Origin: an uncultured Pelagibacteraceae bacterium
Lineage (GTDB): Bacteria; Pseudomonadota; Alphaproteobacteria; Pelagibacterales; Pelagibacteraceae
Length of the DNA stretch: 64,000 bases
Assembly (NCBI GenBank): GCA_902559605.1
Contig: CACEIC010000001.1
Span: forward strand, 41,056-105,055
Reading direction: 5' to 3'
Part shown: in pieces, positions 17,132-26,370 of the stretch
Layout of the letters: every line of letters starts with the position of its first letter
Numbering within the stretch: the stretch's first letter is position 1
Translations under genes and position numbers: made by a program
The notes under the pieces: model-generated
What the model was told of the DNA's origin: nothing
Database searches by the model: none
What the model saw: the letters and a program-made list of their open reading frames with translations, nothing else

Positions 17132-17208
17132 TGGTGGGCCCGCCAGGACTCGAACCTGGGACCAATACATTATGAGTGTACTGCTCTAACCAACTGAGCT
17201 ACAGGCCC
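17132..17208 (-). tRNA. tRNA-Ile2 (CAU, lysidine-modified type)
   Basis: GGGCCTGTAGCTCAGTTGGTTAGAGCAGTACACTCATAATGTATTGGTCCCAGGTTCGAGTCCTGGCGGGCCCACCA folds as a cloverleaf with a CAT anticodon. C4-G69 and C5-G68 (TilS determinants) favour Ile2 over Met. Confidence 0.88.
17169..17208. repeat. att core, left copy (40 bp, tRNA nt 1-40)
   Basis: ATTATGAGTGTACTGCTCTAACCAACTGAGCTACAGGCCC, identical to 26331-26370. Confidence 0.95.
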
Positions 17209-17311
17209 TTAAAATTATCATGTAATTACAACAAAATTAAAATTGATACAAGTTAACTTTACAAACAATAGATTGAATTTTCATGTAATTTTATGACTAA
17301 ACTTTGCATTC

Positions 17312-17333
17312 GTTGGTAAATAGTTGGTAAAAA
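17312..17333. repeat. Arm-type-like repeat, left copy
   Basis: GTTGGTAAATAGTTGGTAAAAA (two GTTGGTAAA units, 11-bp period), identical to 26237-26258. Confidence 0.85.
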
Positions 17334-17337
17334 ATTT

Positions 17338-17817
17338 CTAAGTTTTTTTCCAATGATTTTTGAAAATTTTAATTCTTTCATTATTAACGTTTTTAAATAC
17401 CCAAACTTTAGTGTTGTATTGATTTAAAATTCTATCAAACTCAATTTTTGATTTATTCAAACACTCAATGAATAATAGTCCTTTTTTTCGTCTATTTTCA
17501 GGTCTATGTATTCCTTGGCCACCTATTTTATTATCATAATCTTTTAAAGGCGTAGTTCCTCTTTTTAAAAGCAAACTGACGTATTCTTTAGATCCAATTT
17601 CTGCAATTTTACCAAATTCCTCTGTGCTGATATAATCTTTACCTAAATCATACACTCTTTTATAATTTCCTGATCCAATAAATTCTTTTTCTTTAATATT
17701 TAAAAGTTCAGTCTTAGTTTTAGCTTTAAAAATTTTTCCAGTTGATGTTTGCTTCCAACACCATTGGTTTTCAGTAATACTAAAATAAAAACTGTCTTTA
17801 TTGTATCTATTCATCAA
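17338..17817 (-). CDS. Hypothetical protein (island)
   Basis: 159-aa ORF co-oriented with the other island genes; no family recognised. Confidence 0.6.
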   Translation of the reverse strand: MMNRYNKDSFYFSITENQWCWKQTSTGKIFKAKTKTELLNIKEKEFIGSGNYKRVYDLGKDYISTEEFGKIAEIGSKEYVSLLLKRGTTPLKDYDNKIGGQGIHRPENRRKKGLLFIECLNKSKIEFDRILNQYNTKVWVFKNVNNERIKIFKNHWKKT

Positions 17818-17845
17818 TTTTGTAAAATTTATTTAATTAAATTTT

Positions 17846-19945
17846 TTAAATTGTTTTGAATGTTTTTTCAGAAATTCCATTTATTCTTAATTTCTTATAT
17901 TTTAAAATTTCTCTAGCCATTTTTAAAAAAGAAGTATTTTTTAATTCTGCTGCTTTTTTAAATTCATAGCCATATATCCAGATATCTTTTAACTTTTTTA
18001 ATTTTTTTAACTTATTGAAATCAGTGTAACCATTGACTAAACGACTTATAACGCTACCTTCTTTATTATACTTTGTAAAATAATTGTAATATCTTAACTT
18101 TTCAAAAGTTTTTATTTTTTCAAAATTTGGAAAATCATCTACTTGTAAAATTCTGTGCATAAAATACAAATCATCGTTGCTTCCAGCGTATCCTTTGTGG
18201 TGGATATACTCATCGTTAGGTTTGTCCTCTTTAACTTCTTTTGGAACAACAACCTCAAAATCTTTCAATTTTTTTGGATAAATATTTTTTGGAAAATCAA
18301 CTTCAGATGGGGATATTAAATAACTGTCAGCATTTATTGTAAGTCTTTCTAAATTTGGCAACTTGTATAAATTAACAAAAAACGATTTAGTAGTTTTTGT
18401 ATCAATTATACATGTATCTAAATGTAAATGTTTCAGTTTCTTTAATTTTGATAGAGGTGTCCAATCTTTAATATACTCTATATTAGCTAATACCAATTGT
18501 TCAATGTTCTTTAGTTTTTCAATTTCTTTTAAATTTTTTGAGTCTCTTAAATCAATTTTATCTATTTGAGCGTATTTGAGTTTTTTATCTATTATATTTT
18601 TTAGATAAAGACTCTCTTTATTAAACTTATTTGCTATTAATTTTCCATGTTCGTTTTTATTTAAGTAACAACCTTTAATACCTTCTATAACAATTTTGAC
18701 ATGACCTTCACCCATATCATCTTTTGTCTCCTCATTTTTATAACAGTGCAAATAGACTGGATAGGAGCCTTTATTTGCTGGAAAAATAATTCTAGTTATT
18801 GAAAAATCAACATTCTCTCTTAATTTATAACCATCAAATAGTTCAGCTACTCCCTCTGAGGAAGATATTTCAAGTTTTTTTTCACTGAGTTTCTTTTTTT
18901 TACCTTTTTTTCCAAATGAGGGTAGGTCTAATTCTTGAGGTTCAATATCTTTAATTATTCCAATTATAAAATCTTCAAATTGTTTTTTTCTTCTTTCAAA
19001 AGCTTTCTTAAAGTTTTCTTTAAACAAAATCTTAGTTTGTTTCTTTAATATTTGAATAGCTTTTGGAAGACGATTAGAAATATATTCTGCAGAAATTTTA
19101 ATATCTTTATCTATTTTTAAATTAAAATTAGAACTAAAATTTTTATCTTCATCATAACCAACTTCATCAACTTTAGATAAATAATCTTTAAAAATATATT
19201 TTGTTGGATAACAATTTTCATCTAATAAATTGCTAAATAGTTCCACATAGGAATAGTTGATCGGTTCTTGATGGGGTTCTAATTTTTTATGTATTACTGA
19301 AGAACTAAAACTCGATGATTGAGGCCTGGTAATAAGGCCATAAGAAAATTTAACAATTAGTATTGGCGTAGTATTTTGGAAAATTCCACCTTTTTTAAAA
19401 TAGTTTAAATCAACATGTTCTTTGAGCTCTGAGTCACTATCTGTATAACCAGGTCCGTCATTCCAACCTAATAACCATCTTAATGGACCTGCATGATCAC
19501 CTACTGCAATAAGACCAGATCTTAAGTTTAAATCAAATAATTTAAATCTATTTTCAGAAACTTTGTTAAAAAATTGATCATTAAAATCTGCCTTATCCCA
19601 CCAAAAAGATAAATAACTTTGTCTGTCCTTAGGATGACTTTGATATTCTGCAACTGTTGCGTCAGCAAATATTTTTCTAATTCTATTTTTAGAATCAACA
19701 CCGACATAAACAGAGTAACCACCATCAGCTCCATTGCTGAATGAGATAGAATTATATTTTGAAGCATCTATATTTTTAAATTGGTCTGTAACCTCTTTAA
19801 GACTTGGAAAATCACTTCCTGTAACAAAATCATTACTTAGTCTTTCACATAAATCACCAACTGTAACAGTAGCTGCATCAACAGCATTCATTTCTAATAA
19901 ATAAATATCTGTTATTGGATATGGGTCTCTTATTTTTTTTGACAT
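17846..19945 (-). CDS. Protein with a DUF4241-like N-terminal region and C-terminal leucine-rich repeats
   Basis: LRR-type units (IEKLKNIEQLVL, LSKLKKLKHLHL, LYKLPNLERLTI, LKKLKKLKDIWI). N-terminal VDAAT...SNGADGGYSVY and LRSGLIAVGD resemble DUF4241 motifs from memory. Confidence 0.6.
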   Translation of the reverse strand: MSKKIRDPYPITDIYLLEMNAVDAATVTVGDLCERLSNDFVTGSDFPSLKEVTDQFKNIDASKYNSISFSNGADGGYSVYVGVDSKNRIRKIFADATVAEYQSHPKDRQSYLSFWWDKADFNDQFFNKVSENRFKLFDLNLRSGLIAVGDHAGPLRWLLGWNDGPGYTDSDSELKEHVDLNYFKKGGIFQNTTPILIVKFSYGLITRPQSSSFSSSVIHKKLEPHQEPINYSYVELFSNLLDENCYPTKYIFKDYLSKVDEVGYDEDKNFSSNFNLKIDKDIKISAEYISNRLPKAIQILKKQTKILFKENFKKAFERRKKQFEDFIIGIIKDIEPQELDLPSFGKKGKKKKLSEKKLEISSSEGVAELFDGYKLRENVDFSITRIIFPANKGSYPVYLHCYKNEETKDDMGEGHVKIVIEGIKGCYLNKNEHGKLIANKFNKESLYLKNIIDKKLKYAQIDKIDLRDSKNLKEIEKLKNIEQLVLANIEYIKDWTPLSKLKKLKHLHLDTCIIDTKTTKSFFVNLYKLPNLERLTINADSYLISPSEVDFPKNIYPKKLKDFEVVVPKEVKEDKPNDEYIHHKGYAGSNDDLYFMHRILQVDDFPNFEKIKTFEKLRYYNYFTKYNKEGSVISRLVNGYTDFNKLKKLKKLKDIWIYGYEFKKAAELKNTSFLKMAREILKYKKLRINGISEKTFKTI

Positions 19946-19956
19946 TTAATTATTCT

Positions 19957-20331
19957 TTAAGTCCTTTTTGTATTTGCACTCATTAAATCTCTTTGTTTTT
20001 TTGTTCTAGCTCTGTTTCTAAATGTATTTTCATCAATAATTTTTTTCTCAAATTCAATAATACTTTCTCTTGTAGAATGTTTATATACATCTTTTAAAGG
20101 TTGTTTGCTTTTGCCCGAATGTCCAAAAACTAATCCTAATCTTTCTGTTTCTTTTCTGGATAAAATTTTTGATCTATTGTTTTTTCCTTCGCCTCTAAAA
20201 TCTTTTTTAGTCCAATTTCGAGGATAACTATCAATTATTTTTTGTATTTCTTTATCCGATCTAATTTCCCACTGATTAAAACCATTAGGATTTCGATTGT
20301 AATCTCTATTCTTTTTTGTCATTCTTTTCAC
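19957..20331 (-). CDS. Hypothetical basic protein (island)
   Basis: 124-aa ORF overlapping the upstream ORF; the true start may be the internal ATG (MTKKNR) after AAGGTG. Confidence 0.6.
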   Translation of the reverse strand: MKRMTKKNRDYNRNPNGFNQWEIRSDKEIQKIIDSYPRNWTKKDFRGEGKNNRSKILSRKETERLGLVFGHSGKSKQPLKDVYKHSTRESIIEFEKKIIDENTFRNRARTKKQRDLMSANTKRT

Positions 20332-20584
20332 CTTTAAGCATTCTAATTTCGGTTTCTATCATTTCAAGTTTATGCCGATCATATATATAGCTAAAGTACT
20401 TTAATGTGTTGTAAGGTAAAAAATATAATTTTAAGACTAAATTTAAAAAAGGTTTATCTTTGTAATATAATTTCTTTGCATTAGCAGCTAAATGCCTATG
20501 AGTAAGTGACCATCCAAGATAGTTTCTCCATTCTATTCTATTTTCTAATCTCTCTTTTATTATTTCATCTAGGTTGTGCTTCAT
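20306..20584 (-). CDS. Hypothetical protein (island)
   Basis: 92 aa, ATGA overlap with the upstream ORF. Confidence 0.6.
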   Translation of the reverse strand: MKHNLDEIIKERLENRIEWRNYLGWSLTHRHLAANAKKLYYKDKPFLNLVLKLYFLPYNTLKYFSYIYDRHKLEMIETEIRMLKGEKNDKKE

Positions 20585-20973
20585 TTTTTTTTATTACTTA
20601 TAGTTACAGTAAAATATGACTCTTTATAATTTTCCCTCATAATTGATTTTATTAAGTTTTGGTCATGAAAGTCTTTTGCTTTAGCTAAATCTAAAGAATA
20701 ATTTACATTTTCATTAATTATCTGATTTTGAATTAATTGATTTTTTTTTTCATAATCTAATTTTAAATACTTTTCTTCATCAAAAGATGAAGTAATTTTT
20801 TCTTTTCTTTTTGTAAATCTGGCACTACCATTTTCTGAAATTGTTTTGTAAGAAGCATTTTTTCCCACTGTACTCTCTTTCAACAAATTTTTTAATTCAT
20901 CCAATCTCTTTTTATTTCTTTTAATATTATTTTGTAAATCGATTGCTTCGTCGATCAATTGCTCAATTTTCAT
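20581..20973 (-). CDS. Hypothetical coiled-coil protein, phage-like
   Basis: N-terminal heptad coiled coil followed by a beta-rich tail; overlaps the 708-aa gene by 11 nt. Confidence 0.6.
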   Translation of the reverse strand: MKIEQLIDEAIDLQNNIKRNKKRLDELKNLLKESTVGKNASYKTISENGSARFTKRKEKITSSFDEEKYLKLDYEKKNQLIQNQIINENVNYSLDLAKAKDFHDQNLIKSIMRENYKESYFTVTISNKKK

Positions 20974-23089
20974 CTATTGTAACCTTTATAATATTTGGAT
21001 TAAAAGATAACTTTAAACAAATAAGTGTATCTTTTTTAAAATTACTAATGATATCTTTTAAGTCCCAGATTCCTAAATTTATTCTTATGCTTGATTTACT
21101 TTCATAATTATAATATTGGCCTTCGAGAATATCATGCCAATGGGAGGGTAAATATCTTATAAATCCTTGGGAAATAATTGATTGTGTTAATTTAAATTTA
21201 ATATTAATTTTTTTATTATCTGCCCAATCAATTTTTAAATTAGGATCATTATCTTTACTTTCTTTACTCGCTCTTTGTTTAGCATTATTAAGTTTATCGT
21301 CTTCAATTATTGTTCCAGCTAAAACAAAAACTTTGTCTAATCTTTTTATTAAGTATGAACCATACATGTAAGCGTTTAAAGAACCAACATTAATTGAATA
21401 TTTTGCTGCCAAATCAATGCTTTCCCAGAAAGTGATATATTTACCATTTTCTAAAAATAGATTTATTATTTTTTGTTCTAAATTTGGAATTTCGGGTTTT
21501 TTTCCTTTGAAATATATAAAATGATTATCAGACTCAAAATTATTTGCTTTGCAAATTTTTTTAATCAAATTTAATGGTGGTGATGTCCTAATCCTATGAT
21601 CATTTAATAAAGCAGCCTGAAAGTCCTCAAATGATATTTTTTTATGGATAAATAGTAATTTATTTAAACGTTTCATAATATTTTGACCAGAAGTATCTAG
21701 AGCCATAAAATTCTCATCATCAAGCCAAATAAAATTTGAATGTTTTTTTAAAGAATTTTTAATATTCTCATATTTGGTATATTTCTTAGTTTTAAACAAA
21801 TCATTGATTACTTTATTGAAATTACAAAAACTATATTTTGTGGTTAATTTTCTACTTTCAGAGATAATTTTATTTAATTCCTTAATTTCATTCATTGAAG
21901 AAACCAAAAATTCTTCATCCTCTATTTTTTTTTCGTCGGATAATAGATCTTTATTTTCTAAATTAGAGTAATTGTTAGTGGTTAGATGAGTTTCAAATTT
22001 ATGCTTTGTAAACGCAGACAGTATAGTTCTTAAAGAAGAAAGTGACTTATAAGAATTAAAAAAGTTTTCAGCTTTTAATCTTTCGTTTAAATATTTTTCA
22101 CCTATTGGTGTATTATTTGATAAAAATTTTAATAATTTGTTGAACGCAAACTTAAAATTTTCTTTATTAATTAAGTGTTTGCAAAATTTACTCTGTATTT
22201 GTCTTATTCTCTCTCTTTCTACTTTAAATTCTTTTCCAAGAGAATCTAAAGTTGAAAACTCTTTGTCTATCGACATTCTAGATTTAATTATTTTTTCTTT
22301 TCTAATAAACAATAAGTCATTTTCTTTATCATTTTTGCTAAGATAAGATAAAATAATTTCATCAATGTTATTGTTAGAAAAATTTTTTGAAATATGTTTT
22401 AAGTAAATTTGATGAAAGTATTTTTTATCTATCGAATACCAATCAAATTTTGTTTTAGTTTTAATTATTATATCGTCTTTAATTATTTCATTATTTAAAG
22501 ATAATTTATTTGTTTTTAAGAATTCTTTTATTTCAACGATGGTTTTTACACCGATTTTTGGAGTTTTTTTTAATTCATCCTCTGAAACATTTAAAACCAG
22601 ATCTCCAACATAAGTTAGATTCAGATTTTTAAAAACTCCCATAGCTCTTTGTGAAAACTCACAAGAATTTAGTTTCTTTAAGTAAATGGGATCAAAAGTA
22701 AGATTTAATCTAGCCTGGAGAAGAGATCTTTGATATTGATCATCTTGAGTAATTTTTTTAATATTTATTTGATCACAAATAAAATTTTCTTTAATAAGTT
22801 TTCCAATTTTTTTACCATGTTTAGTTAATTGAATATTATTATTAAAAGATGTTGCTAAATTATATTTTTCTAGAACTTTGTGAGAAATTAAATTTCTTAC
22901 TTTTTGGCTAAATTTATCATCAGATCTATCTTTTAATATTTGTTTATCAGACTCAGGTATATTAGAGATTGATCTAATTTCAGAGATTAGTCTTGAAGTA
23001 GATATTTTATCTGTTGATTTATAACTGGCTACTATTAATGCGGGTGGTACAAGATTTAGATCGTTGACTGAGTCAAAATAAAATTTCAT
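20963..23089 (-). CDS. Multidomain protein: N-terminal wHTH-like, RNAP alpha-CTD, sigma70 region-4 HTH, C-terminal wHTH-like region
   Basis: aa ~133-198 (FSQRAMGVFKNLNLTYVGDLV...SEDELKKTPKIGVKTIVEIKEFL) matches the alpha-CTD pattern. aa ~263-306 (STLDSLGKEFKVERERIRQIQSK) aligns by eye with Rpo[24 protein letters not shown] in this same window. Confidence 0.8.
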   Translation of the reverse strand: MKFYFDSVNDLNLVPPALIVASYKSTDKISTSRLISEIRSISNIPESDKQILKDRSDDKFSQKVRNLISHKVLEKYNLATSFNNNIQLTKHGKKIGKLIKENFICDQINIKKITQDDQYQRSLLQARLNLTFDPIYLKKLNSCEFSQRAMGVFKNLNLTYVGDLVLNVSEDELKKTPKIGVKTIVEIKEFLKTNKLSLNNEIIKDDIIIKTKTKFDWYSIDKKYFHQIYLKHISKNFSNNNIDEIILSYLSKNDKENDLLFIRKEKIIKSRMSIDKEFSTLDSLGKEFKVERERIRQIQSKFCKHLINKENFKFAFNKLLKFLSNNTPIGEKYLNERLKAENFFNSYKSLSSLRTILSAFTKHKFETHLTTNNYSNLENKDLLSDEKKIEDEEFLVSSMNEIKELNKIISESRKLTTKYSFCNFNKVINDLFKTKKYTKYENIKNSLKKHSNFIWLDDENFMALDTSGQNIMKRLNKLLFIHKKISFEDFQAALLNDHRIRTSPPLNLIKKICKANNFESDNHFIYFKGKKPEIPNLEQKIINLFLENGKYITFWESIDLAAKYSINVGSLNAYMYGSYLIKRLDKVFVLAGTIIEDDKLNNAKQRASKESKDNDPNLKIDWADNKKINIKFKLTQSIISQGFIRYLPSHWHDILEGQYYNYESKSSIRINLGIWDLKDIISNFKKDTLICLKLSFNPNIIKVTIDEN

Positions 23090-23116
23090 TTAATTACAGT
23101 TGAAGGTCTCAATAAT

Positions 23117-23184
23117 ATTAACAAAGGCACCCCAAGCACAGAAAGGTATGGAAAGCGATATAAGCTTGGGGCACCTTTGTTAAT
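23117..23184 (-). other. Intergenic 21-bp RNA hairpin with a 26-nt loop
   Basis: Arms 23117-23137 and 23164-23184 give 19 Watson-Crick pairs; the other 2 positions pair as G-U only on the minus (sense) strand. Confidence 0.75.
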
Positions 23185-23209
23185 CTCTTTTAAATCTGCT
23201 AATTTCATT

Positions 23210-24835
23210 TTAAATATTAGACAAATCATTTATTATCTTTAAAGCTTCAGCTAAATACTCATCTGTATTCTCTTTAAACCATTTTTTTTCTAGTAACAGA
23301 TAACTTAGACCAAAAGCATATTCTGTAAAAGCAATCTCGTATGTAGTGATTTTGAATAACCACTCGTTATCTTTGCTCTTTTTTTTTATATCAACAATAT
23401 GTGGATGATCTAAATTAATATAAACAATATTATTATCTCTATCAAACTTAGCTCTATTATTATTTGGGGTATTATTTCTATATTGTACTTCAAATCTTGA
23501 CCCACCAGATGATTTATTTTTTCCAATACCATTAACCCTTTTGGCTTTTTTACTTTCGTTTTTGTTCTCTTCAATATTCGAATTGTTTTTTTTACTGCTA
23601 TTTGATTTTTTATCTCCAAACTTTCCTAATGATTTAAAATCATTGTTTATTATTGCCTCTAGCTCATCTCCAATACTTAATGATCCATTTTCATTTAGAT
23701 TTTGTGAATTAAATGCTTTTGCATTTCCAACATTTCCATTGGAAATTCTATTTACTTGCATTCTAATTTTATCTTTATATTGCTCAAAATGATTATTTAT
23801 TTTTTCGGCAGCAGTATCAGCAATTTTTTGGAGTTTTTTTGCTTCTTCAGTTTGTTTTTCTTCTTTATCTTGTTCAACAAGTTTTTTTCTTACATCCTCA
23901 ATATTTGGACCTATAAAAGAGTACAAGCTTTTTACAAGTGGGCTTGAGGTTGACAATGTCATATCTCTTGCAACTGTTGAATTTACTTCTTCATCGCTAT
24001 CGTAATCAAGTTTTGGACAATCAATTTCTCCAAATATAAACTCTGACATTTCTCTTCCCTCAGAACCGCAAAGAGTTTCTGTTAACAAAACATTATTAGA
24101 ATTAACTCTTATCCTATTTCGATTATTATCTAGCGGCTCGGCTGCAACTTTGATTATTAAATCAATATTTCCAAGCTCGGGATGAGTTTTTTCTGTATTA
24201 AATTTGTAGATTTGTTTTGAGATAGGTTCTTTGTATTCGCACAAGTGATTATCCACCCAAACTTCTGCACCTTTGCCGTATGAGCCCAAGTGTTTTTCGA
24301 TATAATCAATTGTATCTTTTTTATTAGATTTGCTAAATATTTCAGAGATTTCAACCTTTGTTCCATCATTCTCTTTTGTTTTTTCTCCATAATTAATTAT
24401 ATAATCTTTAAGAGGAATGTTATCTCCTTTTTCTTGATACTTCTTTAACTCTTTTTTAGTAAGCTTAATTGAATAATTTTTCTTATTTTTAGATGTTGAT
24501 AAAAAAAATGAATTAGCGATTGCAAATGCAGCTGATTTGCCAGTCCCATTTTTACCTCTTACCCTAATTCCTTTTTTTCTTGCTCTATTTTCACCATGCA
24601 TTGTAAAAAAATTTTGTAAACCATCTTTATCCATTCCAGCACCATTTCCTGATATAGTAAGTTTATCTTTTTCAAAACTTACATGAATTATTGGTTTTCT
24701 TTTAATTTCTACACATGAGTCAAGTTCATTCGACACATATTCCCAAACCACATTATGTGTATGTTTAAATAAATGAGCACCATCTAGAATTGATTTTGCA
24801 GTGTTAGATTTAAATTGTAAATTATCTCGTGACAT
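23210..24835 (-). CDS. GHKL (Hsp90/MutL/MORC-like) ATPase
   Basis: Bergerat-fold boxes WEYVSNELD, (G)NGAGM, GKNGTGKS and GTKVEI, then an S5-like region, a coiled coil, a low-complexity linker and a C-terminal domain. Confidence 0.85.
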   Translation of the reverse strand: MSRDNLQFKSNTAKSILDGAHLFKHTHNVVWEYVSNELDSCVEIKRKPIIHVSFEKDKLTISGNGAGMDKDGLQNFFTMHGENRARKKGIRVRGKNGTGKSAAFAIANSFFLSTSKNKKNYSIKLTKKELKKYQEKGDNIPLKDYIINYGEKTKENDGTKVEISEIFSKSNKKDTIDYIEKHLGSYGKGAEVWVDNHLCEYKEPISKQIYKFNTEKTHPELGNIDLIIKVAAEPLDNNRNRIRVNSNNVLLTETLCGSEGREMSEFIFGEIDCPKLDYDSDEEVNSTVARDMTLSTSSPLVKSLYSFIGPNIEDVRKKLVEQDKEEKQTEEAKKLQKIADTAAEKINNHFEQYKDKIRMQVNRISNGNVGNAKAFNSQNLNENGSLSIGDELEAIINNDFKSLGKFGDKKSNSSKKNNSNIEENKNESKKAKRVNGIGKNKSSGGSRFEVQYRNNTPNNNRAKFDRDNNIVYINLDHPHIVDIKKKSKDNEWLFKITTYEIAFTEYAFGLSYLLLEKKWFKENTDEYLAEALKIINDLSNI

Positions 24836-25412
24836 ATTTTTTTACCTCTTTTTTGTAATTATTTATTAATTGATAAATTTGATCTTGATCCTTAAAATTA
24901 TCTAAAAGATCAATTATGCGTTTATCAAGATCTTTTGCTGAAGTATAATCATTAACTTTAAATAAATTCTTAATATCTTGCGATGTAATATTTTTATTAT
25001 CATTACTCAAATATTTTTTATATGCATCAGTGTTCATAATTCTATTTTCTTCTCTTAAAATGTATTTTTTTTCTACTGCAGAAAGTCTTTTTTTTCTTAT
25101 AACTTTGCCATTAAATTTATGTTTAGATGATTTGCAAAAGTCTAATCCTATTGTTGTTAAAATCCATCCTTGCTTATCATTACCTTTTACAAATGCTCCT
25201 ATTTTTCTTACTCTAGCAGCATTTAGACTTTCAATAATCAGACCTTTATCAATGAACTCTTTGTATTTTTTGTTTCTCCACTTGAATCTCTCATTGTCAA
25301 TACGATCAGCCTGAACAGCTATATCCTCAGTATCAATAAATTTTCTTGCTCCACCCATTTCGTACAAAGCTATGGTCACTAATTCTATATTTTTAATTTT
25401 TTTTAGTATCAC
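24822..25412 (-). CDS. Putative winged-helix protein coupled to the GHKL ATPase
   Basis: ALYEMGG...DTEDIAV...GWILTTIG wHTH-like pattern; overlaps both neighbouring genes. Confidence 0.6.
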   Translation of the reverse strand: MILKKIKNIELVTIALYEMGGARKFIDTEDIAVQADRIDNERFKWRNKKYKEFIDKGLIIESLNAARVRKIGAFVKGNDKQGWILTTIGLDFCKSSKHKFNGKVIRKKRLSAVEKKYILREENRIMNTDAYKKYLSNDNKNITSQDIKNLFKVNDYTSAKDLDKRIIDLLDNFKDQDQIYQLINNYKKEVKKYVTR

Positions 25413-25633
25413 AATTTAAACTCCTTAGTCTCTCTGGAGTTTTTTGAGTTAAATTTTTCTTTGATATTTTTTACTTCTGATGACAAAGCATTAACTATTT
25501 TGTCTGCTTCATTTTGTGAGTAGGAATAATGACTTTTGTTAGCAAGATTAGATATTAACCTTAGCAATTTAATTGCTTTGTTTACTCTACTATTTGCTAG
25601 TTCTTCAAATTTAATTTTTTTTTCATTTGTCAT
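25409..25633 (-). CDS. Small helical protein (74 aa), first gene of the ATPase operon
   Basis: KFEELANSRVNKAIKLLRLISNLANKSHYSYS; directly preceded by a near-consensus promoter. Confidence 0.75.
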   Translation of the reverse strand: MTNEKKIKFEELANSRVNKAIKLLRLISNLANKSHYSYSQNEADKIVNALSSEVKNIKEKFNSKNSRETKEFKL

Positions 25634-25639
25634 AATATT

Positions 25640-25668
25640 ATTATGCTATGTAATACGGCACATGTCAA
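25640..25668 (-). promoter_or_regulatory. sigma70 promoter TTGACA-N17-CATAAT, probably yielding a leaderless mRNA
   Basis: -35 at 25663-25668, -10 at 25640-25645, with 6 nt between the -10 box and the ATG at 25633. Confidence 0.75.
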
Positions 25669-25717
25669 CATATAAATATTACATCTTTTAGTTGAATACT
25701 CGGCATATCTTAATATT

Positions 25718-25984
25718 TCAATGTATAGTTCTATTTTTCTGCAAATCATTTTCATACTCTATCTTTCCCACTATTAGTCTCAGTCTAGAGGATAACTTTA
25801 ACCATTTTTGTCTATTATTTAGTGGATTTAACCATGGGAGGTCTTTTTGCTTTAATTTTAGATAAACACACAAAATTTTGTCAATTTTATTCAAAAAATT
25901 TTGCCTATTGAGAGGTGTATGATGCTCAAAGAGTCTGATTAAGTTTGTGTTGTTATTTTTATTATTTTTTCGCTTTTTTTTCAT
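25718..25984 (-). CDS. Hypothetical basic protein (island)
   Basis: 88 aa with an SD (GAAAGGA) 5 nt before the ATG. Confidence 0.6.
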   Translation of the reverse strand: MKKKRKNNKNNNTNLIRLFEHHTPLNRQNFLNKIDKILCVYLKLKQKDLPWLNPLNNRQKWLKLSSRLRLIVGKIEYENDLQKNRTIH

Positions 25985-26236
25985 ATTTTTCCTTTCAAAT
26001 TAAGTTCTGCCTGGAAAAATACAAAATCTATCAATTAATCCAAAAGCAAAACTAAGTTTTGTTGGCTAATATGATAAAAATGTTTGAAATAGTTTAACGT
26101 AAAGATAGTTAAAAAATTGTCTAAACAAGTAAATCAATTAACTAAATAGTTAATATCAGAACCTTTTTTAATATCAAGATATTTGTTTAATTTGAGTTAT
26201 CAGCGATTAATAAATAATAATAAAAGAATATGTTTT

Positions 26237-26258
26237 GTTGGTAAATAGTTGGTAAAAA
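26237..26258. repeat. Arm-type-like repeat, right copy
   Basis: Identical to 17312-17333, same orientation. Confidence 0.85.
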
Positions 26259-26330
26259 TTTAAATTTTTATAAATAGTTTAAAAAACGTTGAAATATGTG
26301 GGTTTTTTGAAAGGATTTCTTTTACAAGAA

Positions 26331-26370
26331 ATTATGAGTGTACTGCTCTAACCAACTGAGCTACAGGCCC
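26331..26370 (-). repeat. att core, right copy: 5' half-fragment of tRNA-Ile2
   Basis: Identical to tRNA nt 1-40; the sequence diverges just after the anticodon loop. Confidence 0.95.

What the first reader, a model, noticed from the sequence alone, without database searches (positions are those of the whole stretch)
20581..25684. Candidate new system: small protein + wHTH + MORC-like GHKL ATPase + alpha-CTD/sigma4 fusion protein
Seen: a dedicated promoter leads three overlapping genes (74 aa, 196 aa, 541-aa GHKL ATPase). A hairpin follows, then a 708-aa protein carrying RNAP alpha-CTD and sigma70 region-4 domains, coupled to small ORFs. All of this lies inside a tRNA-integrated island. Known: prokaryotic MORC-type GHKL ATPases typically occur in restriction or anti-phage loci, alongside a nuclease, methyltransferase, Z1 domain or helicase. 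I cannot recognise any such partner here. Inference: this may be an anti-phage or transcription-silencing module in which a DNA-clamping ATPase works with an RNA-polymerase-mimic protein instead of a canonical R-M effector.
Basis: partly seen in the sequence, partly recalled or inferred. Interest (0 to 1): 0.85.

Follow-up and report, generated by a model that had tools for sequence, protein, structure and literature searches.

The report
Nuclease-free MORC-like ATPase three-gene module
An ocean SAR11 bacterium carries, in a tRNA-inserted island, an unnamed three-gene set that recurs in many unrelated bacteria: a predicted MORC-like clamp ATPase, a small partner and a large protein built from RNA polymerase's promoter-gripping parts; with no recognisable DNA-cutting enzyme, it likely defends by clamping and silencing promoter DNA, which is untested.

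The parts
25640..25668 (-). sigma70-type promoter (-35 at 25663-25668, -10 at 25640-25645) with an A/T-rich upstream stretch; probably gives a leaderless mRNA here
   Evidence: conserved upstream of 7 of 7 SAR11-like loci examined; start site inferred
25409..25633 (-). 74-aa small basic helical protein, accessory, likely a regulator
   Evidence: profile hits in 33 of 160 loci; VapBC pairs or a ~205-aa family occupy the same place in other loci; no family hit
24822..25412 (-). W, 196 aa, core; basic; N-terminal winged-helix-like domain (assigned by sequence pattern, not folded alone) plus helical C-terminal part
   Evidence: directly upstream of the ATPase in 137 of 139 informative loci; no Pfam family across 78 members; 688 clusters at E<=1e-10; invariant E29, W45, E121, Y156
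23210..24835 (-). GHKL+S5 ATPase, 541 aa, core: ATPase 1-~200, S5 to ~327, helix to 364, disordered linker 366-445, conserved C-terminal alpha/beta domain 446-541
   Evidence: E32, N36, G97-T98-G99-K100 and R290 invariant in 73; box-II Asp replaced by Gly in 17 of 73 including this copy
23117..23184 (-). 21-bp hairpin between ATPase and AS; lineage-specific, not core
   Evidence: (gap <=35 nt in 73 of 88 loci)
20963..23089 (-). AS, 708 aa, core: variable N-terminal winged helix (1-105), alpha-CTD (132-199), sigma-4 (242-309), tandem winged-helix-like domains (~310-594), C-terminal beta-rich domain (619-705)
   Evidence: model pLDDT 91; folds; adjacent in 63 of 65 informative loci; residue conservation
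26325..26370 (-). disrupted 5' part of tRNA(CAT), one attachment-like end of the island
17132..17208 (-). intact tRNA(CAT), other end of the island; its first 46 nt repeat 26325-26370
   Evidence: empty-site joints 17209/17210->26430 in 3 of 4 runs laid
17309..17336 (.). 28-nt direct repeat, copy 1, just inside the island end (copy 2 at 26234-26261); possible recombinase arm site
17338..20973 (-). island cargo outside the conserved module: 130, 92, 124, 699 (LRR) and 159 aa ORFs

Best explanation
W, the ATPase and AS form a conserved mobile three-gene unit, which likely acts as a nuclease-free DNA clamp: AS is predicted to bind promoter-like DNA, the MORC-like ATPase would close on that DNA with W as adaptor, and transcription would be blocked, probably as defence against phages or other invading DNA. 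Shown: the three genes co-occur and co-diverge across phyla; the ATPase has a GHKL+S5 fold with conserved catalytic residues; AS carries alpha-CTD and sigma-4 folds whose DNA-contact residues are conserved, plus further winged-helix-like domains; no cutting or modifying enzyme is a constant neighbour. Inferred from established knowledge (recalled): alpha-CTD reads A/T-rich UP elements, sigma-4 reads -35 boxes, GHKL dimers close on ATP, and eukaryotic MORCs trap and silence DNA. Inferred and untested: complex formation, the DNA target, how self is spared or whether the host is shut down on infection, and the defence role.
Against: No phenotype or expression data. Defence-type genes are almost as frequent 2.5-10 kb away (12 of 148 scanned, of 434), there was no random-locus control, and 43 of 63 loci show no such close neighbour. 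AS homologues (E 1e-54 to 1e-60) stand without W or ATPase within the ~4-6 kb fetched on 3 of 3 plasmids examined, beside rep, dnaE/dnaG or Ku/ligase genes. Two ATPase loci lack both partners (L073, L079). A generic -35 reader has no obvious self/non-self rule. A -35-like hexamer upstream of the operon is only weakly enriched family-wide (29 vs 18 of 118). This copy has lost the box-II Asp, which may weaken ATP binding. Loci were chosen by ATPase score (80 of 212 and 80 of 492) and include near-duplicates; kinship alone inflates the matrix correlation. The ATPase-AS fusion sits beside a frameshifted W and may be decay.
Confidence: 0.4

Rival explanations
1. Decoy-guard abortive system: alpha-CTD and sigma-4 are bait for phage proteins that attack RNA polymerase, and the ATPase acts like an Hsp90 chaperone that holds W or AS in check until the bait is hit.
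Against: The conserved face is the DNA-binding one. The HtpG match is weak (probability 0.5-2.5%). No toxic effector domain is recognisable.
Confidence: 0.2
2. Helper for restriction or other nucleases encoded elsewhere: the set marks or remodels DNA for an unlinked or variable nuclease or methylase, as proposed for MORC/paraMORC operons.
For: R-M-type genes lie close in about 13 of 63 loci. One N6-methylase family neighbours 5 loci and C5 methylases 3. Iyer 2008 notes stand-alone paraMORC3 genes that may work with unlinked systems.
Against: No partner family recurs across clades; this island holds none.
Confidence: 0.15
3. Not defence: a transcription or maintenance module of mobile DNA (self-silencing, addiction, or regulation of element genes).
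For: Stand-alone AS homologues beside replication genes on large plasmids; VapBC pairs upstream in some loci; many loci sit among housekeeping genes.
Against: No full-length ATPase or W relative in the plasmid, phage or viral collections; defence genes are common nearby.
Confidence: 0.13
4. A cryptic enzyme is present: W, the AS C-terminal half or the ATPase C-terminal domain is an unrecognised nuclease or other catalyst, making this a restriction-like system.
Confidence: 0.1
5. Chance assembly of unrelated island genes.
For: The small flanking ORFs are indeed lineage-specific cargo.
Against: Near-complete co-occurrence of the three core genes in three gene orders across phyla.
Confidence: 0.01

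Closest known systems
Prokaryotic MORC/paraMORC1-5 GHKL ATPases of R-M-like operons (Iyer, Abhiman, Aravind 2008, PMC2292703; parts 1-2 of 4 and passages read)
   Same: GHKL+S5 module with a conserved basic residue, C-terminal extension, sporadic lateral spread; family members hit the BbrUII/HgiDII model (63 of 73, best E 3e-24).
   Different: No MORC signature Arg; no constant SFII helicase (about 70% in that paper), nuclease or methylase; constant partners are W and an alpha-CTD/sigma-4 protein, and 'sigma' and 'RNA polymerase' do not occur in that paper's main text.
MZA (mzaABCDE) anti-phage system
   Same: Pairs a sigma-factor-like protein with a GHKL-type ATPase (NCBIfam names; passage in PMC9523054).
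Eukaryotic MORC2/MORC3/SMCHD1 silencers
   Same: Closest solved folds; ATPase with a long disordered linker; described as DNA-trapping repressors (passages in 10.64898/2026.09.30.754977).
   Different: About 15% identity; no CW or hinge domain; targeting would come from a separate promoter-reading protein.
BREX type 2 PglW
   Same: Alpha-CTD-like domain followed by several winged-helix modules in a defence protein (passage in PMC12839542; weak hits).
   Different: AS has no kinase or NERD domain; no PglX or PglZ family among the neighbours scanned.
Tiamat and Hsp90-like anti-phage GHKL proteins
   Same: GHKL clamp used in defence (passages).
   Different: Tiamat is a large protein with its own DNase; nothing similar is recognised here.

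Membership tests
GHKL+S5 ATPases | ATP-binding motifs (ExxxN, DxGxG, GxGK, GT) | tested here: met
   E32, N36, G67, G97-K100 invariant in 73; G158-T159 in 70 and 72 of 73; box-II Asp in 56 of 73 but Gly in this copy
GHKL+S5 ATPases | S5-fold domain with a conserved basic residue | tested here: met
MORC family (Iyer 2008) | GhXhhpXXRhl motif in S5 | tested here: not met
   G241 in 71 of 73, but position 249 is Arg in 0 of 73
MORC/paraMORC R-M-like operons | constant SFII helicase, nuclease or methylase neighbour | tested here: not met
   Helicase within 2.5 kb in 4 of 63 loci, all different; no enzyme family shared across clades
paraMORC2 | ExxxH in the C-terminal part of S5 | tested here: not met
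   2 of 73
paraMORC5 | HxH in the C-terminal domain | tested here: not met
   1 of 73
paraMORC3 / paraMORC4 | C-terminal restriction-fold nuclease or TIR domain | tested here: inconclusive
   No Pfam or PDB sequence hit; the domain was not folded and searched alone
paraMORC1 | its own conserved C-terminal extension | not testable with these tools
   The text read gives no motif; figure and supplement not seen
MZA system | MzaA and MzaB above curated cut-offs | tested here: not met
   MzaA 31 bits vs 800, sigma-4 only; MzaB best E 4e-8 among members, none for the window protein
sigma70 factors | regions 2 and 3 as well as region 4 | tested here: not met
   Only Sigma70_r4 in the window protein and in 14 other AS homologues scanned
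Hsp90/HtpG | HSP90 middle and C-terminal domains | tested here: inconclusive
   No PF00183 match in this genome; C-terminal profile match only 0.5-2.5%
B3/EcoRII-N DNA-binding barrel (AS C-terminal domain) | pseudobarrel fold and profile similarity | tested here: inconclusive
   Strand/helix order fits from recall; profile matches no better than a control
Anti-phage defence system | protection against phage needing the genes | not testable with these tools
   Needs experiments

The most novel reading that the evidence does not exclude
This is a bacterial counterpart of MORC-type epigenetic silencing: an immune system with no nuclease or methylase, in which a protein assembled from RNA polymerase's own promoter-recognition modules finds strong promoters on invading DNA and loads an ATP-driven clamp that shuts them off.
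Probability: 0.27. Interest if true: 0.92.

Novelty: new variant of a known kind. Interest (0 to 1): 0.7.

Why it matters
Prokaryotic MORC-like ATPases are thought to serve nucleases in restriction-type operons, whereas eukaryotic MORCs silence transposons and viruses without cutting. A compact three-gene set with a MORC-like ATPase, a promoter reader and no enzyme partner makes it directly testable whether clamp-based silencing already exists in bacteria. Cultured carriers exist (Maritimibacter alkaliphilus HTCC2654, Allopontixanthobacter confluentis). It also shows a streamlined SAR11 lineage carrying a candidate defence module in a tRNA island.

Tried and rejected
Complex prediction (ATPase 1-365 and 444-541, AS 369-708, W as partner): no answer, score 0.21 against a mark of 0.32, controls not run; not used for or against. 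PADLOC: no hit for the ATPase or the 74-aa protein; W only a chance-level Cas2c hit. PDB sequence searches with W, AS C-terminal, AS middle and ATPase C-terminal profiles: nothing significant. Pfam on fragments: no recurring family. B3 and Hsp90-CTD assignments by profile: not significant. Foldseek of AS against PDB and viral models: nothing at E<=0.001; AS residues 310-708 were barely tested, so no claim of a new fold is made. ESM Atlas: only unnamed clusters for W; leads under 0.9 for AS. Viral, phage and plasmid collections: no W relative and no full-length ATPase relative. No RNA holder listed. MADS dropped as a relative: its MAD3-MAD4 is an OLD-like ATPase-nuclease (abstract start in listing; passages). 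Dnd paper passages: no GHKL mention. Zincin peptidase dropped: no HExxH. My first idea that other SAR11 inserts at this site share the tRNA duplication was wrong: 16 of 16 relatives' stretches have one copy. The tree is the quick search; the careful one did not finish, and the SAR11 rows sit on long branches.

Full report
Setting. The window looks like a SAR11/Pelagibacter chromosome (about 27% GC; rpoD, dnaG, carAB nearby; the name is my inference from the protein hits). The finding lies in a 9.1-kb insert between tRNA-Val(GAC) and tRNA(CAT). The first 46 nt of tRNA(CAT) are repeated at both ends, and a 28-nt repeat lies just inside each end. Of 16 relatives' stretches picked for matching this site, 10 have the two tRNAs side by side and 6 carry 0.9-4.6 kb of other DNA with no module gene. 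No integrase was found in the island or in the 62%-complete genome. Near-identical pieces occur in four seawater metagenomes of four studies and bridge the gene junctions.

Observation. ORFs, overlaps, promoter and hairpin are as described. The promoter is no rarer than chance by itself but is kept in 7 of 7 SAR11-like loci. The hairpin is found only here and in L081; 73 of 88 loci have a gap of 35 nt or less.

What the unit is. The ATPase has 90 relatives in one search, most full length, down to 28% identity. With their alignment I fetched the best 80 of 212 genome matches and the best 80 of 492 metagenome matches. Of 156 loci in the ATPase cluster, 139 had at least 700 nt upstream: 137 have W there (126 by ORF clustering, 11 by profile, one of them split). 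65 had enough DNA on both sides: 63 have AS. L073 and L079 lack both. Four loci (L142, L150, L152, L157) fell outside that cluster and were not counted; all four carry W and AS sequence. Some loci are near-duplicates. Gene order is W-ATPase-AS in 90, AS divergent in 14, AS-W-ATPase in 11 and unclassified in 9 of 124; where both are present W sits directly before the ATPase. The 74-aa gene is in 33 of 160. Pairwise distances of the three proteins correlate at 0.83-0.92 over 68 loci, which kinship partly explains; the quick tree needs 19 phylum changes for 14 phyla, with Acidobacteriota in 6 places. None of 400 other genomes of the family has the ATPase. So this is a rare, widely scattered three-gene unit.

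W has no family name but a large family. Single fusions W-ATPase, AS-W and ATPase-AS exist; each may be a lost stop or a deletion.

Neighbours. Of 233 proteins within 2.5 kb in 63 long loci (one representative per cluster), 25 in 20 loci are defence-type by my classification: R-M, GmrSD, McrBC, Mrr, HNH, SIR2, DndB, HerA, sacsin-like, SNF2/DUF1156, PIN, Fic. Farther out the rate is 12 of 148 scanned, of 434. There is no steep gradient and no random control, so this suggests residence in defence-rich regions without proving it. An N6-methylase family sits beside 5 loci, four of them actinobacterial; it is not general.

Mechanism. Most likely (0.4) AS binds promoter-like DNA and the ATPase clamps it with W's help, blocking transcription without cutting. 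Rivals: decoy-guard abortive system (0.2), helper to unlinked nucleases (0.15), non-defence regulation of mobile DNA (0.13), cryptic enzyme (0.1). That the three genes are one functional unit is near certain; that the function is conflict or defence I put at about 0.7.

Novelty. No PADLOC 2.0, NCBIfam, Pfam or PHROGs model names the set. Ten paper searches found no description. I read parts 1-2 of 4 of PMC2292703 and passages of PMC12839542, PMC10853773, PMC9523054, 10.64898/2026.09.30.754977, 10.1101/2023.03.30.534895 and 10.64898/2026.04.03.716430; PMC13662399 only as a listing. PMC3272235 and PMC10681802 were not held, and no figures or supplements were seen; they could list this operon. 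Earlier notes of this scan report the same module in other genomes; my reading was set down before I saw them. I file it as a new variant of GHKL conflict systems, not as a member of MORC or MZA; it would be categorically new if nuclease-free silencing is shown.

Noticed in passing
window 17132-26370: The island carries the 5' part of the tRNA rather than the usual 3' part: the copy beside tRNA-Val is broken after the anticodon loop and a full tRNA is restored at the far end. No integrase in the island; 28-nt repeats inside both ends. The CAT tRNA may be Ile2 rather than Met (not tested).
   Followed up: partly
window 17846-19945: 699-aa cargo protein with LRRs and a weak DUF4241 hit; an earlier scan note describes a look-alike in SAR11.
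   Followed up: no
L150/L152/L157 (e.g. L157:1169-4330): ATPase residues ~1-357 fused in frame to AS in a 1053-aa ORF, with W frameshifted; three near-identical metagenome contigs.
   Followed up: partly
L162:5542-7458, L163:3270-5372, L164:6151-7101: Stand-alone AS homologues on large plasmids next to Ku/ligase, rep, or dnaE/dnaG genes.
   Followed up: partly
window 24647-24649 (ATPase residue 63): Box-II Asp replaced by Gly in 17 of 73 sequences, 16 of them the marine clade nearest this copy.
   Followed up: partly
L187-L190, L199, L200: Other same-genus genomes hold 0.9-4.6 kb of unrelated DNA between tRNA-Val and tRNA(CAT) without a tRNA duplication: a variable site. Cargo not examined.
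   Followed up: no
L076:6667-6743: In an unrelated proteobacterial MAG the module also lies beside yqeY-dnaG-rpoD and a tRNA(CAT).
   Followed up: no
L035: The module sits between an SNF2/NOV_C gene and a DUF1156 gene, apparently inside another defence operon.
   Followed up: no
window 25646-25662: The promoter spacer is conserved among SAR11-like loci and may be an operator for the 74-aa protein or W.
   Followed up: no
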